Shown: piece after piece, positions 10,666 to 55,736 of the stretch
Numbering within the stretch: the first letter of the stretch is position 1
Layout of the letters: each line of letters starts with the position of its first letter
Assembly: GCA_951406725.2 (NCBI GenBank)
Contig: OX597816.1
Coordinates: 72,664,001 to 72,728,000 of the forward strand
DNA: 64,000 nucleotides
Direction of reading: 5' to 3'
Origin: Octopus vulgaris
Lineage: Eukaryota
Program-made: the position numbers and the translations under genes
Notes under the pieces: generated by a model
The model's input: the letters and a program-made list of their open reading frames with translations, nothing else
What the model was told of the DNA's origin: nothing
Databases searched by the model: none

Positions 10666-10719
<54 letters not shown>

Positions 10720-10839
10720 ACAATCAAGGAACGGCCATAATAGGCCATTCACCCACTAGAAATAACAGCCAAAGCTTCAACCGCAAATAAAAGTTAATTC
10801 TGTAAACCAGGAGAAAATTTAAAAAACATTTACCCTGTA

Positions 10840-10946
10840 ATTTCTTATACGATATACCGTTTCATCTGCTGATTAATGGTAAACTAACCTGATTAAATTA
10901 AATCAAGCCAATCTTCCACAGGCCCTCAGATTCTTCAGTAAGAAAT
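10840..10946 (-). ncRNA. Type I hammerhead ribozyme (copy 1)
   Basis: Reverse complement of 11657-11763. Confidence 0.8.
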
Positions 10947-11656
10947 AGCCCAAGTCGGAACAGATATTTTCACGAGGCATTTCCGACCTTGCCAAGTTTA
11001 TATCTGACCTAAAATTTTCAAATCGTCGCACTCGCGCCAAATTTATCGGCAGCAAATAAATATAAGCCGTCGATTCCATTACGGAATTAACCAGAAAATT
11101 CATAATTAATCAATATAGGGTGGCAAAAAAATTTTGTAGAATTCTTTTGCCACCAGCGGCCTAGTAGGAAAAAATTAAATAGTCATAGACCATTTTTAAG
11201 TTCAACATCAACAATCAAGGAACGGCCATAATAGGCCATTCACCCACTAGAAATAACAGCCAAAGCTTCAACCGCAAATAAAAGTTAATTCTGTAAACCA
11301 GGAGAAAATTTAAAAAACATTTACCCTGTAATTTCTTATACGATATACCGTTTCATCTGCTGATTAATGGTAAACGTTCCTTGATTGTTGATGTTGAACT
11401 TAAAAATGGTCTATGACTATTTAATTTTTTCCTACTAGGCCGCTGGTGGCAAAAGAATTCTACAAAATTTTTTTTTTTGCCACCCTATATTGATTAATTA
11501 TGAATTTTCTGGTTAATTCCGTAATGGAATCGACGGCTTATATTTATTTGCTGCCGATAAATTTGGCGCGAGTGCGACGATTTGAAAATTTTAGGTCAGA
11601 TATAAACTTGGCAAGGTCGGAAATGCCTCGTGAAAATATCTGTTCCGACTTGGGCT

Positions 11657-11763
11657 ATTTCTTACTGAAGAATCTGAGGGCCTGTGGAAGATTGGCTTGA
11701 TTTAATTTAATCAGGTTAGTTTACCATTAATCAGCAGATGAAACGGTATATCGTATAAGAAAT
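11657..11763 (+). ncRNA. Type I hammerhead ribozyme (copy 2)
   Basis: Stem I AUUUCUUA/UAAGAAAU; core CUGAAGA 11665-11671; stem II AUCUG...CAGAU; GAAA 11740-11743; stem III CGG-UAUA-UCG; GUA cleavage triplet 11753-11755. Confidence 0.85.
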
Positions 11764-12147
11764 TACAGGGTAAATGTTTTTTAAATTTTCTCCTGGTTTA
11801 CAGAATTAACTTTTATTTGCGGTTGAAGCTTTGGCTGTTATTTCTAGTGGGTGAATGGCCTATTATGGCCGTTCCTTGATTGTTGATGTTGAACTTAAAA
11901 ATGGTCTATGACTATTTAATTTTTTCCTACTAGGCCGCTGGTGGCAAAGAATTCTACAAAATTTTTTTTGCCACCCTATATTGATTAATTATGAATTTTC
12001 TGGTTAATTCCGTAATGGAATCGACGGCTTATATTTATTTGCTGCCGATAAATTTGGCGCGAGTGCGACGATTTGAAAATTTTAGGTCAGATATAAACTT
12101 GGCAAGGTCGGAAATGCCTCGTGAAAATATCTGTTCCGACTTGGGCT

Positions 12148-12254
12148 ATTTCTTACTGAAGAATCTGAGGGCCTGTGGAAGATTGGCTTGATTTAATTTA
12201 ATCAGGTTAGTTTACCATTAATCAGCAGATGAAACGGTATATCGTATAAGAAAT
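12148..12254 (+). ncRNA. Type I hammerhead ribozyme (copy 3)
   Basis: Identical to copy 2, 491 nt downstream; GUA at 12244-12246. Confidence 0.85.
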
Positions 12255-12478
12255 TACAGGGTAAATGTTTTTTAAATTTTCTCCTGGTTTACAGAATTAA
12301 CTTTTATTTGCGGTTGAAGCTTTGGCTGTTATTTCTAGTGGGTGAATGGCCTATTATGGCCGTTCCTTGATTGTTGATGTTGAACTTAAAAATGGTCTAT
12401 GACTATTTAATTTTTTCCTACTAGGCCGCTGGTGGCAAAGAATTCTACAAAATTTTTTTTGCCACCCTATATTGATTA

Positions 12479-12528
<50 letters not shown>

Positions 12529-30048: not shown

Positions 30049-30050
<2 letters not shown>

Positions 30051-30281
30051 CAATCAAGGAATATATAGGCCATTCACCCACTAGAAATAACAGCCAAAGC
30101 TTCAACCGCAAATAAAAATTAATTCCGTAAACCAGGAGAAAATTTATACCCTGTATATACGATATACCGTTTCATCTGCTGATTAATGGTAAATAACCTG
30201 ATTAAATTAAATCAAGCCAATCTTCCAAAGGCCCTCAGATTCTTATAAGAAATAGTCGGAACAGATATTATATTGATTAAT
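30049..30281 (-). repeat. Degenerate partial copy of the 491-bp hammerhead unit inside (TA)n
   Basis: Matches 10719-10966 with deletions; catalytic core and stem I are broken. Confidence 0.9.
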
Positions 30282-33590: not shown

Positions 33591-33638
33591 TGGCACTCTC
33601 TCCATCTCGTTCATACATATAAGAATATGTTTGAATAT

Positions 33639-33691
<53 letters not shown>

Positions 33692-33720
33692 AGATACATA
33701 CATACATACATACATATATA

Positions 33721-34165
33721 TATAGGGTAGCGAATATTCGTTATAAAATATCACCACCAGTGGCCTGGCATGCATAAATAGTCAATAGACAACATATTCA
33801 TATTTTAAAATAGAGTACATTTAAACACAAAAGAAAATTACCTTTTAACAGGTAATTTTTACATGCTAGAAAAAGCAGCCAACACGGCCAAAACAACAAT
33901 TAAATAGCAATTTTCAAAGGAAATGAAAAATAAAAACTTTTACCTTGTTATTTTTATTTGCGGTTATACAATGATTTCAAATTTCTTTACAAATAAAATT
34001 ATCTGCCACCCTTTAATAGGTAATTTAACAAACAATATTATCCGCCACGCGAATTCTCGTCAGTAACCGACCTCAATAACTAACTTATAATTCAGAGACA
34101 AGATAACAGGTGCTCCATTATTATATGTTATAATTTTTCAAAATTCCGCGGAATTTTGTTCAAAC
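33721..34165 (-). mobile_element. Diverged relative of the 491-bp retrozyme-like unit
   Basis: Colinear shared motifs: tatagggt(a/g)gc, ccaccag(t/c)ggcct, aaatagtca(a)tagac, ctagaaa..cagccaa, then the hammerhead. Confidence 0.7.
33961..34069 (-). ncRNA. Type I hammerhead ribozyme, second variant
   Basis: Minus strand: stem I CGGUUA/UAACCG, core CUGACGA, stem II base GAAUU...AAUUU with long insert, GAAA, minimal stem III, GUA triplet. Confidence 0.65.
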
Positions 34166-34167
34166 AA

Positions 34168-34304
34168 GGCATAGGCATGACCGTGTAGTAAAAATATTGC
34201 TTCCCAACCTCATAGTTCCAGGTTCAGTACCACTGCGTGGCAGCTTAGGTAACAGTTTTCTAGTTTAGCTCCGGGCAAACTTTTATGAGTGGATTTGGGA
34301 AACG
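34168..34304 (+). mobile_element. SINE family B head, interrupted by a Tx1 LINE
   Basis: ggttcagtaccactgcgtggcagcttagg...gagtggatttgg. Confidence 0.8.
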
Positions 34305-36442
34305 GACCCGAGCAAGGAGGATGAAATAGGGAATTTCAGGCCCATAACTCTGCTGAACACAGAGTTAAAGATTTTGGCCAAGGTAGTAGCGAAAAGGTTG
34401 GCGTGGGTCGTGCACAGACTTGTAGGGGAAACGCAAACTTGCGCTATCCCGGGCAAGACGATCCACGACAATCTCCACGCTACTCCTTAGAGAGTGGTGA
34501 AGCTTTCTGGCACAGGGGGCACTGGAACATTTGATAGGGTCGACCATCGGTACTTGGCGGCGGTCCTCGAGAAGGCTGGCCTGGGCCCGACCTTCCGCGG
34601 TTGGATTGCTGCGTTGTACAGCGACATCGAGTCTGTCATAAAAGTGAATGGTTTCCTTTCGAAGCCATTCAGGATCGAGCGCTCAGTGCGTCAGGGATGT
34701 CCCCTGTATCCGCTCTTGCATGTGTGTTGGCTCTCGAGCCATTAATGCGAAAGTTGGAGGCAATAGGGGGCGCATCGCATGATGTATGGTGTGGAAGAGG
34801 AGCAACGGCATATGCGGATGACATCTCCATCATCGTAGCGGATGAGGGCCATTGGTGGAAGAAGCTATAAAATGTTACGAGGCGGTGGCAGGAGCAAAGG
34901 TTAACAAGGACAAGTCGGTCGGTTTGCAACTCGGCACCTGGAGGGGCGAGCCGATGCCGTCCAATAACGTCGTGGGGCGTTGGACGGAAGGTCCTGTTAA
35001 GCTGCTTGGAGTCTGGTTTGGGCCAGGCCTCCGGATAGAGAAAACTTGGAGTGAAGCAGCCAGCAAGGTGACTGCTCTAACCCAGACCTGGTCTGGGCGG
35101 GTGTTGTCCTTGCTAGGAAAGACGGATGTGGTGCAGATGTTTATTACCTACTGCCTGACCGTGGTTCCTTGCCCCGATTTGTGGCTGAACAAGTTGGAGA
35201 GAATCTTTTTCCGCTTTTTGTGGAAAGGAGGAAAGCCACTTGTGAAGCGCTCTGTCTGCTGCCAGAAACCGCAAAAGGGTGGGCTAGGGATACCTTGGCT
35301 GAGGATGAGAAAAATCGCGTTAAGGTTGAGGCACCTTTGGCTTTACCTGGATGGAGAGCAGATGTGGTCACCGCACGTCCGGTTCTACCTTCCACAGTTA
35401 ACGTCCTTAACGGACATTGGCAACTGGATCAAGCAGAGACCTAGGCTGGGGGACTGGCAATTGGAGTATCGTCAGGCACTTCAGCTACTCTCTCGGGCGG
35501 GCAATGCCGGCAATAGGAGCTCCGCCGCGGATTTTTATAGCGGGCTAGTGGAAATTATGTCCGAAGACGCCTTGGGAGAGACCCTAGGCTATGATGAAAA
35601 TCAGTTGATCGACCTGTTCAGGAGAACTTTCGAGCCGGGGTACCTGGATAATTACCAGAAATCTCTGGCTTGGCAGTGCTTCCGTGCGGCATTACCTGTT
35701 CGTGATAAACTGTCAAGGCATGGAAGTGCCGTCTCGCCGACATGTCCGAGATGCGGGCGGGACAGGGAAACGGTCTTGCACGTATTTATGGACTGTCCGG
35801 AATTAAAGGGACTGATAACTTTCACAGAACAACTGTTATCATCGATGGGAAGAGTGCAGCTATCAGCTGAGTCTATCATCGATATTGTTCCTCCTTCTTC
35901 CCTTAACAGGGAAAGGAAGGCTTGCTTTTTCTGCGTAGTAGCCATACTGACGAAACAGTATGGAAGACGAATGTGAGAGGCATAGTGACGGGTAACTTTG
36001 TATCTGGCCAGGGGTTGGTTAACTATTTTAGTTAGCACCTCAGTAGTAAGATCAGGCTGGAGAAGAGGTACCAGTCACGAGATAGATTCATGAAAAGATG
36101 GAAGCCTGTGGCAAGGAAGCTGGGAACAATTGCCTCCAGGTAAGTGGAGTCCAAAAAAAAAAAAAAAAAGAAATTGAAAGAGAAAGCAGGGGTTCTACCC
36201 TGGTGGTCGGATGCCTTTCCTTCAAGGAAGTCATTGCAAATCGCAATGAGTAACATGTTATCATGTAATTGGTAATTAGTAATTTGTAATTTGTAAATAG
36301 TAATTTGTAATTTTTAAATTGTATCATAAATTTATCATCATAAATTTTTAAACGTTATAGCAGCTACTACACCTTTTTATGTTTGTCCTTGTTCGTCCCC
36401 TCTTTGTAATGCCTTCTTGGTAAATTTTATGAAATAAAGTAG
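34305..36442 (+). mobile_element. 5'-truncated Tx1/L1-clade LINE (ORF2 and 3' UTR)
   Basis: NFRPITLLNTELKILAK, FDRVDHRYL, VRQGCPL, AYADDI, KGGLGIP, CPRCGRDRETVLHVFMDC; frameshifted; ends gaaataaagtag. Confidence 0.92.
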
Positions 36443-55562: not shown

Positions 55563-55736
55563 ACACAAACTAAAAGACACACTCTCACACACACACATAC
55601 ATGTATATATATTATACACATACATACATGTACATATATATTCATATATATACATCCATCCAAGGATTATATATATATACTCACACACAGACACATATAT
55701 ATATATATATACATACATACACACACACACATGCAC

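What the first reader, a model, noticed from the sequence alone, without database searches (positions are those of the whole stretch)
33721..34165. Diverged second family keeps the hammerhead with compensatory stem I
Seen: a (TA)n-abutting segment shares only short colinear motifs with the 491-bp unit, yet has a hammerhead at the equivalent position and orientation. Stem I is CGGUUA/UAACCG (versus AUUUCUUA/UAAGAAAU), the core is CUGACGA (versus CUGAAGA, differing only at the variable position), GAAA and GUA are kept, and the long stem II insert is similar (109 versus 107 nt overall). Inference: changed stem sequence with retained pairing indicates selection on ribozyme structure, so there are at least two old lineages of the element. 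Stem III is minimal, as in Penelope-type hammerheads that may act as dimers.
Basis: partly seen in the sequence, partly recalled or inferred. Interest (0 to 1): 0.75.

Follow-up and report, generated by a model that had tools for sequence, protein, structure and literature searches.

The report
Decayed copy of pseudoknotted hammerhead retrozyme
This stretch is a worn, shortened copy of a 514-base protein-free repeat, one of over a dozen related families in this animal genome whose hammerhead-shaped RNA is predicted to cut itself in pairs with the help of a small knot between its two arms; the repeats are likely spread by Penelope-type jumping genes and belong to a known class (retrozymes).

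Summary
Confirmed in outline. The hammerhead at 34069-33961 (minus strand) is real (0 of 5000 shuffles), and the segment is homologous to the 491-bp unit (z 7.5). It is a 5'-truncated copy, 6% from its family majority, of a 514-bp non-coding repeat that ends in (TA)n and forms partial tandems and 5' inversions: a non-LTR retrozyme, likely mobilised by a Penelope-like element (partner not found). Corrections: the 'minimal' stem III is decay in this copy (the family has the palindrome ACCAUGGU); the 107/109-nt match is coincidental; and there are more than a dozen lineages, not two. Across them stems I and II covary, and stem III stays self-complementary through 12 different sequences (75 of 98 unselected hits), which supports dimer cleavage. 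New here: internal loops of stems I and II are predicted to form a 3-5 bp pseudoknot (GGC/GCC, changed to GGU/ACC in two separate clades) below a long stem II extension. Cleavage and expression are untested. The scan reported long-stem-II retrozymes elsewhere in this genome before (e1-9553813, e1-8667016); the short notes shown did not mention this pseudoknot.

The parts
33635..33724 (.). (TA)n/(TACA)n microsatellite at the element's 3' end (insertion target)
   Evidence: 23 of 30 family loci end in a TA-type repeat
33725..34150 (-). 5'-truncated copy (about 426 of 514 bp) of retrozyme family F2, 93.5% identical to the family majority
33725..33790 (-). 3'-terminal region with the motif shared by related families (UGACUA...CUAGGCCRCUGG...ACCC); main insertion end point
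33961..34069 (-). Type I hammerhead: stem Ia 34069-34064 / 33966-33961, core CUGACGA 34063-34057, stem IIa 34056-34052 / 33983-33979, GAAA 33978-33975, predicted cut after 33967
33968..33975 (-). Stem III; AUCAUUGU in this copy, palindrome ACCAUGGU in the family majority (self-duplex -0.3 vs -11.2 kcal/mol)
33984..34051 (-). Long stem II extension with an internal loop after the first 5 bp
34070..34073 (-). Loop-1 half of the predicted pseudoknot (AGGU here, AGGC in the majority)
34047..34050 (-). Loop-2 half of the predicted pseudoknot (GCGU here, GCCU in the majority)
34149..34158 (+). 10-nt fold-back at the 5' truncation point (20-nt palindrome 34139-34158), likely a micro 5' inversion
   Evidence: sequence; reading as an inversion is inferred
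10716..12481 (.). Young relative F1: 491-bp unit, 2.2 tandem copies on + with an inverted 660-bp arm, (TA)n on both sides; hammerheads at 11657-11763(+), 12148-12254(+), 10946-10840(-)
30049..30280 (-). Further decayed F1 fragment between (TA)n runs, with a deletion in the hammerhead core

Best explanation
The segment is a 5'-truncated, mutated genomic copy of a 514-bp protein-free repeat with one type I hammerhead motif per unit, likely a non-LTR retrozyme pasted into (TA)n repeats by the enzyme of a Penelope-like element, and its ribozyme is predicted to cut as a dimer with a pseudoknot between stems I and II. Shown: unit length, lack of an ORF, dispersed copies, partial tandems, 5' inversions, (TA)n ends, two preferred 3' end points, covarying stems, palindromic stem III, complementary loop motifs. 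Inferred: (1) tandem copies are transcribed; (2) two hammerheads exchange stem III strands (8-12 bp duplex) and cut after GUA/GUC, releasing unit-length RNA; (3) the loop 1-loop 2 pseudoknot holds stems I and II parallel, leaving the tip of stem II free to grow; (4) the unit RNA, probably circularised, is reverse-transcribed from two internal start sites by a PLE RT/GIY-YIG protein, most likely of the Neptune type found here. This copy itself is probably inactive.
For: 72 matches among the 40 scored of 1894 candidate places. Unit 514 bp, 32% GC, longest stop-free frame 57 aa. Of 30 top loci, 13 run continuously beyond one unit (>530 bp), 10 carry an inverted piece, 23 end in TA-type repeats. 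3' ends cluster at two points about 80 nt apart (23 and 11 of 41 pieces), like the two RT start sites of the anole PLE (PMC11167929, passages). In 11 hand-picked real copies, stem Ia is paired in 43 of 44 cells with double changes at all 4 pairs; shifted registers reach at most 22 of 44. Alignment A1: 28 cells with double change vs 9.9 shuffled, 0 of 500. A pattern that left the inside of stem III free gave 1404 hits vs 1 control; 75 of 98 inspected hits are perfect palindromes, and 12 of 32 distinct inner sequences are, vs 2.5 in shuffles. In that set, which did not select for the pseudoknot, 61 of the 68 with a core have GG in loop 1 and CC in loop 2; the next pair is C-G in 48 and U-A in 5, C-A and U-G once each, other 6. 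GGU/ACC occurs in two separate clades of a tree built without the hammerhead core and stems. PLEs with RT plus C-terminal GIY-YIG are present, 16 of 148 GIY-YIG matches in a 781-codon open frame, and several copies end in (TA)n.
Against: No cleavage assay. 5' ends of copies are not enriched at the predicted cut (1 of 41 pieces in the 20-nt bin ending at it). No autonomous partner sharing the 3' end was found: 292 loci screened by tblastn, the two closest juxtapositions were chance insertions, and a family profile found no consistent match in 80 PLE loci. The first stem II pair is often A.A (6 of 11). The minimum-energy fold of the F2 majority does not form the hammerhead. The pseudoknot's central GG/CC pairs are invariant, so they carry no covariation; the U-A switch rests on few copies, and Fisher's p (1e-5) counts copies, not events. 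Spacing correlation is weak in the unselected set (rho 0.37). In the anole PLE, hammerhead cleavage was not needed for insertion in vitro, and 8 of 9 Xenopus retrozyme dimers tested did not cleave.
Confidence: 0.8

Rival explanations
1. The unit is the pseudo-LTR (3' end) of an autonomous Penelope-like element not yet found, and the copies are its truncated ends rather than a free retrozyme.
For: Partial tandems, 5' inversions and (TA)n ends are typical of PLE insertions (PMC8557442, passages). Only part of the PLE diversity was sampled (150 scored of 6136 GIY-YIG candidates).
Against: In tandem loci the sequence upstream of a unit is the 3' end of the same unit, never coding sequence; F1 arrays reach 8-9 units. 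None of the followed-up PLE neighbours is continuous with the unit in other copies (0 of 29; 0 of 14). Neptune-type 3' ends carry a different, short U3-A8 hammerhead.
Confidence: 0.1
2. The element is a retrozyme-like PLE parasite, but the hammerhead fold is kept for something other than fast cleavage (for example protein binding or RNA packaging), and GGC/GCC forms an alternative hairpin or a protein-bound motif instead of a pseudoknot.
For: The fold program pairs AGGC with GCCU as a simple hairpin in the F2 majority. Minimal PLE hammerheads cleave poorly in vitro (PMC4209133). No 5'-end enrichment at the cut site.
Against: Core letters, GUH triplet, three covarying stems and a self-complementary stem III are kept together across many lineages. 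Stems Ia and IIa covary, so their strands are paired elsewhere, which makes the loop pairing a pseudoknot. Stem I-II pseudoknots are known to speed hammerheads (PMC3088659, passages).
Confidence: 0.07
3. A satellite or MITE-like DNA repeat amplified at DNA level, with a chance or fossil hammerhead.
For: Tandem arrays exist; some insertions have inverted arms.
Against: Copies are dispersed on many contigs with fixed 3' ends and variable 5' ends; inverted arms vary in length and are absent in 20 of 30 loci; structure covaries among lineages.
Confidence: 0.03

Closest known systems
Metazoan non-LTR retrozymes (Cervera and de la Pena 2020, PMC7229834, passages and section 14 read; Li, Clavereau and Pollet 2026, bioRxiv 10.64898/2026.07.22.740005, parts 1-3 of 5 read)
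   Same: Non-coding, low-GC tandem units with one type I hammerhead each; no LTR; co-occur with PLEs; mussel motifs also lack the usual loop 1-loop 2 contact letters.
   Different: Units of 465-514 bp are above the 150-450 bp of the 2020 paper (within the 51-972 bp of the preprint); stem II is 39-81 nt, not a short hairpin; predicted internal-loop pseudoknot; palindromes up to 12 nt; RNA circles not shown here.
PLE hammerheads (Cervera and de la Pena 2014, PMC4209133, parts 1-2 of 4 read)
   Same: Type I, palindromic helix III, predicted dimer cleavage, many sequence families per genome with compensatory changes.
   Different: Not in the pLTR of an ORF-bearing element; helix III is present; G10.1-C11.1 holds only in some lineages (F2, F4a), others have A-U or A.A; distal stem I and long stem II.
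Pseudoknotted hammerheads, including the human C10orf118 ribozyme (Perreault et al. 2011, PMC3088659, passages read)
   Same: Base pairing between the stem I and stem II regions is predicted to replace the non-canonical loop contacts.
   Different: Here both partners are internal loops, in a mobile repeat, combined with a dimer-type stem III.
EN+ Penelope-like elements: insertion structure (Craig et al. 2021, PMC8557442, passages) and internal RT start sites (Frangieh et al. 2024, PMC11167929, passages)
   Same: 5' truncation, partial tandems, inverted 5' copy, AT-rich or (TA)n targets, two preferred 3' end points.
   Different: No ORF; end points about 80 nt apart in F2, against a 30-40 bp tail.

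Membership tests
Hammerhead ribozyme, type I | Core CUGANGA, GAAA, UH with three helices, stem I open | tested here: met
   23 of 30 F2 copies keep all 11 core letters
Hammerhead ribozyme, type I | Helices supported by covariation | tested here: met
   (copies hand-picked for intact anchors; lineages are related)
Hammerhead ribozyme, type I | Match to an Rfam hammerhead model | tested here: not met
   0 hits at gathering score in the window; no hammerhead family at E up to 1 in 4 loci; likely due to the long stem II (inferred)
Hammerhead ribozyme, type I | Self-cleavage after UH | not testable with these tools
   needs an in vitro assay; copy 5' ends show no enrichment at the site
Non-LTR retrozyme | Short non-coding low-GC unit with one type I hammerhead | tested here: met
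   units 491, 514, 471, 465 bp; GC 0.30-0.36; longest stop-free frame 57-84 aa
Non-LTR retrozyme | Head-to-tail tandems with two consecutive complete hammerheads | tested here: met
   F1 arrays; F2 mostly partial tandems, two hammerhead-spanning units in L020; the window copy is a monomer fragment
Non-LTR retrozyme | Expressed as unit-length linear and circular RNA | not testable with these tools
   only contigs of runs not on record as RNA were available
Non-LTR retrozyme | Co-occurrence with autonomous PLEs | tested here: met
Non-LTR retrozyme | Homology to the pLTR of a PLE partner | tested here: inconclusive
   none found in 80 PLE loci; PLE sampling incomplete
Autonomous EN+ Penelope-like element | RT plus GIY-YIG ORF within the element | tested here: not met
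Autonomous EN+ Penelope-like element | Partial tandem, 5' inversion, microsatellite target | tested here: met
Minimal PLE hammerhead (min-HHR) | Helix III absent, no recognisable loop 1-loop 2 contact | tested here: not met
   palindromic 8-12 nt helix III and complementary loop motifs

The most novel reading that the evidence does not exclude
A whole radiation of animal retrozymes uses a hammerhead design not found in the papers searched: an internal-loop-to-internal-loop pseudoknot supplies the stem I-II contact, freeing stem II to carry a 40-80 nt cargo, while an obligate palindromic stem III restricts cutting to multimeric transcripts so that monomer circles survive. More than a dozen lineages form a natural mutational scan of this design, invisible to Rfam.
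Probability: 0.5. Interest if true: 0.58.

Novelty: new variant of a known kind. Interest (0 to 1): 0.42.

Why it matters
The class is known, so the copy itself is ordinary. The value lies in the family set. Twelve different palindromes at stem III are unusually clean genomic evidence that dimer cleavage is selected in these elements. The predicted pseudoknot suggests how a retrozyme hammerhead could work without the standard loop contacts, and gives a direct disrupt-and-rescue test. Rfam misses these motifs, so surveys undercount them. A young family (F1) and an intact-looking PLE in the same genome offer a pair for testing the still unproven idea that PLEs mobilise retrozymes.

Tried and rejected
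Rfam: nothing relevant. Autonomous partner: an F2 copy behind a GIY-YIG fragment (L017) and an F3 copy behind another (L135) looked like ORF-plus-pLTR, but 0 of 29 and 0 of 14 other copies of those PLEs continue into the unit; the other PLE fragments near 292 family loci were not followed one by one. A Pfam helix-turn-helix family I wanted for other PLE clades is not in the library. Expression: no RNA holder listed; contigs of runs guessed to be RNA cover both units, and one F1 contig goes back by 492 nt, which genomic tandems explain equally, so nothing is concluded. Selection on single copies: rare substitutions in the core vs the rest, F2 5/261 vs 321/10400 (p 0.36), F3 5/330 vs 405/11031 (p 0.035), not convincing. 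The GGY...GCCT pattern (8306 vs 1237 control) selects for the pseudoknot, so families found by it were not counted as support; one search was run as the unbiased test. The F3/F5 identities came from a faulty cut and were redone. F1 and F2 as sister lineages: not supported (39/85). A weak match at 55606-55666 is low-complexity sequence. Lunse et al. 2017 is not held; only its title was seen in a reference list.

Full report
Setting. The window is G000:C3:72664001-72728000 of a 2.8-Gb, 227-contig, microsatellite-rich animal genome; its look is octopus-like (my inference and earlier scan notes, not tested). Rfam finds nothing at gathering score in the window and no hammerhead at E up to 1 in four family loci.

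Observation. A descriptor scan finds the motif as described on the minus strand at 34069-33961 (109 nt) and three copies of the 107-nt motif in the 491-bp array at 10716-12481. The descriptor matched 0 of 5000 shuffles. The segment aligns to the 491-bp unit (F1) with z 7.5 in the same orientation only; the signal comes from the part 3' of the hammerhead, so the two hammerheads are homologous by position, independently of their own sequence. Identity is 64-66% over aligned columns.

What the segment is. It is a dispersed repeat: 72 matches among 40 scored of 1894 candidate places, main hits 85-92% identical. The unit (F2) is 514 bp, 32% GC, with no frame over 57 codons. In the 30 best loci, 13 run beyond one unit, 10 have an inverted piece and 23 end in TA-type repeats (these are the best-scoring loci, so long copies are favoured). 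3' ends cluster at two points about 80 nt apart (23 and 11 of 41 pieces) while 5' ends are scattered. The window copy covers unit positions 74-511, with a 10-nt fold-back at its 5' end. These are the insertion marks described for endonuclease-bearing Penelope-like elements (PMC8557442, passages; PMC11167929, passages), on a unit that fits the non-LTR retrozyme definition (PMC7229834, passages and section 14; bioRxiv 10.64898/2026.07.22.740005, parts 1-3 of 5; its supplements were not seen).

This copy is decayed. Copies are a median 6% from the majority, the window copy 6.1%. It keeps the 11 core letters but has changes at position 11.1, at two stem III positions and in both halves of the loop pairing described below. 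The family stem III is ACCAUGGU, which cannot close a good hairpin but forms an 8-bp self-duplex (-11.2 kcal/mol); the window's AUCAUUGU gives -0.3. Only 2 of 30 copies keep core, stems and loop motifs all intact, and rare substitutions are not clearly depleted in the core (F2 p 0.36, F3 p 0.035). Selection therefore acted on the source lineages, not on inserted copies. F1, in contrast, is a young burst: mostly 98-100% identical copies in arrays of up to 8-9 units.

Many lineages. A 3'-end motif shared by related families gave 399 exact hits with 0 in the control, leading to families F3-F6. Further patterns added more. A tree of 33 rows built from sequence 3' of the hammerhead (7 of 39 picked copies skipped, window added) resolves well over a dozen lineages; F1 and F2 are not supported as sisters (39/85). 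Stem II is 39-47 nt in most lineages, 55-68 in the F1 clade and 78-81 in F2, whose close relatives have about 40, so the long inserts of F1 and F2 likely arose separately.

Covariation. In 11 hand-picked real copies anchored on core motifs only, stem Ia is paired in 43 of 44 cells with double changes at all four pairs, and stem IIa in 45 of 55 with double changes at all five; shifted registers reach at most 22 of 44 and 23 of 55. The first stem II pair is A.A in 6 of 11. On a MAFFT alignment of 16 copies (F1 misaligned in its 3' half), 8 of 12 pairs show double change, 28 cells vs 9.9 in shuffles, 0 of 500 (related sequences can exceed this control).

Dimer signature. The pattern fixed only the two outer pairs of stem III and left 4-9 inner letters free: 1404 hits, 1 in the control. 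Among 98 distinct hits recovered from the first 100 listed (contig C1 only), 75 inner segments are perfect palindromes (a central unpaired base allowed when odd), and 12 of 32 distinct sequences are, against 2.5 (maximum 7) in 2000 shuffles. A monomer hairpin would not need a self-complementary loop; a strand-exchanged dimer does. Palindromic helix III and dimer cleavage are known (PMC4209133, parts 1-2 of 4; PMC3088659, passages).

Predicted pseudoknot. Stem I can continue after an internal loop whose 5' strand carries GGC, and stem II has an internal loop after 4-6 bp whose 5' strand carries GCC(U). In the unselected set, 61 of the 68 hits with a core have GG and CC at these places; the third pair is C-G in 48, U-A in 5, U-G and C-A once each, other 6, two of which are GGU/ACC misregistered by the script. 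GGU/ACC occurs in F1d, nested among GGC/GCC lineages, and in the F3b-F13 clade (99/98), and F3 has the wobble GGU/GCC. The distances from the core to the two motifs vary together (rho 0.87 in the first set, 0.37 in the unselected set, copies counted). Stem I-II pseudoknots are known to speed hammerheads, including a human one. I found no description of this internal-loop form in retrozymes, nor of cephalopod retrozymes, in five searches (listings, with passages read as cited); an octopus repeat-annotation paper has no mention of ribozymes in its main text (PMC13282606, passages). Supplementary figures of PMC7229834 and PMC4209133, which show mussel and other motifs, were not seen and could contain it.

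Partner. PLEs with RT and C-terminal GIY-YIG are abundant, one family with a 781-codon frame in 16 of 148 matches and (TA)n ends; the cysteine linker points to the Neptune type. No shared 3' sequence links them to the repeat, and two juxtapositions proved to be chance. Mobilisation in trans is therefore inferred from insertion marks only. Against the cleavage step: copy 5' ends are not enriched at the cut, cleavage was dispensable for the anole PLE in vitro, and most Xenopus retrozyme dimers tested were inactive.

Earlier scan notes. Similar long-stem-II retrozymes in this genome were reported before (e1-9553813, e1-8667016, e1-8670440), and e1-8801346 gave the lead to the two-start-site paper. 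They are unchecked AI notes and not independent support.

Verdict. Real feature, known class, new structural variant. Best explanation 0.8; pseudoknot-plus-dimer design about 0.5 until tested; interest 0.42.

Noticed in passing
L062:28-1794; L063, L065, L066, L069 3' ends: PLE with RT, a CxxxxCxxC linker and C-terminal GIY-YIG (Neptune-like); 16 matches lie in a 781-codon open frame; related copies carry a short hammerhead with the U3-A8 core variant and palindrome ACAUGU near a (TA)n end.
   Followed up: partly
L064:455 (+) and 208 (-): Another long-stem-II hammerhead (59 nt, stem III ACGAUCGU) as an inverted pair beside the (TA)n tail of a PLE; it does not show the 3' end or GGC/GCC loops of the families studied.
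   Followed up: no
L059, L063, L067, L130: Further unrelated type I hammerhead matches with palindromic stem III, in passing.
   Followed up: no
L186, L192, L210, L212: Several F4/F5 copies have UUGAUGA with G8 kept (U3.G8), recurring across copies.
   Followed up: no
F4b-F10 lineages, e.g. L192, L205, L255, L288: An A.A apposition stands at the first stem II position (10.1/11.1) in many lineages.
   Followed up: partly
window 34166-34300 and 34310-35976: A short interspersed repeat (looks like a SINE; label recalled, not tested) directly abuts the 5' end, followed by a broken LINE-type RT frame with a zf-RVT domain.
   Followed up: partly
window 30049-30280 (-): Decayed F1 fragment with a core deletion, flanked by (TA)n.
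   Followed up: yes
L012:1377-2450, L021:1331-1904: Copies of different retrozyme families sit next to each other in the same TA-rich spot.
   Followed up: no
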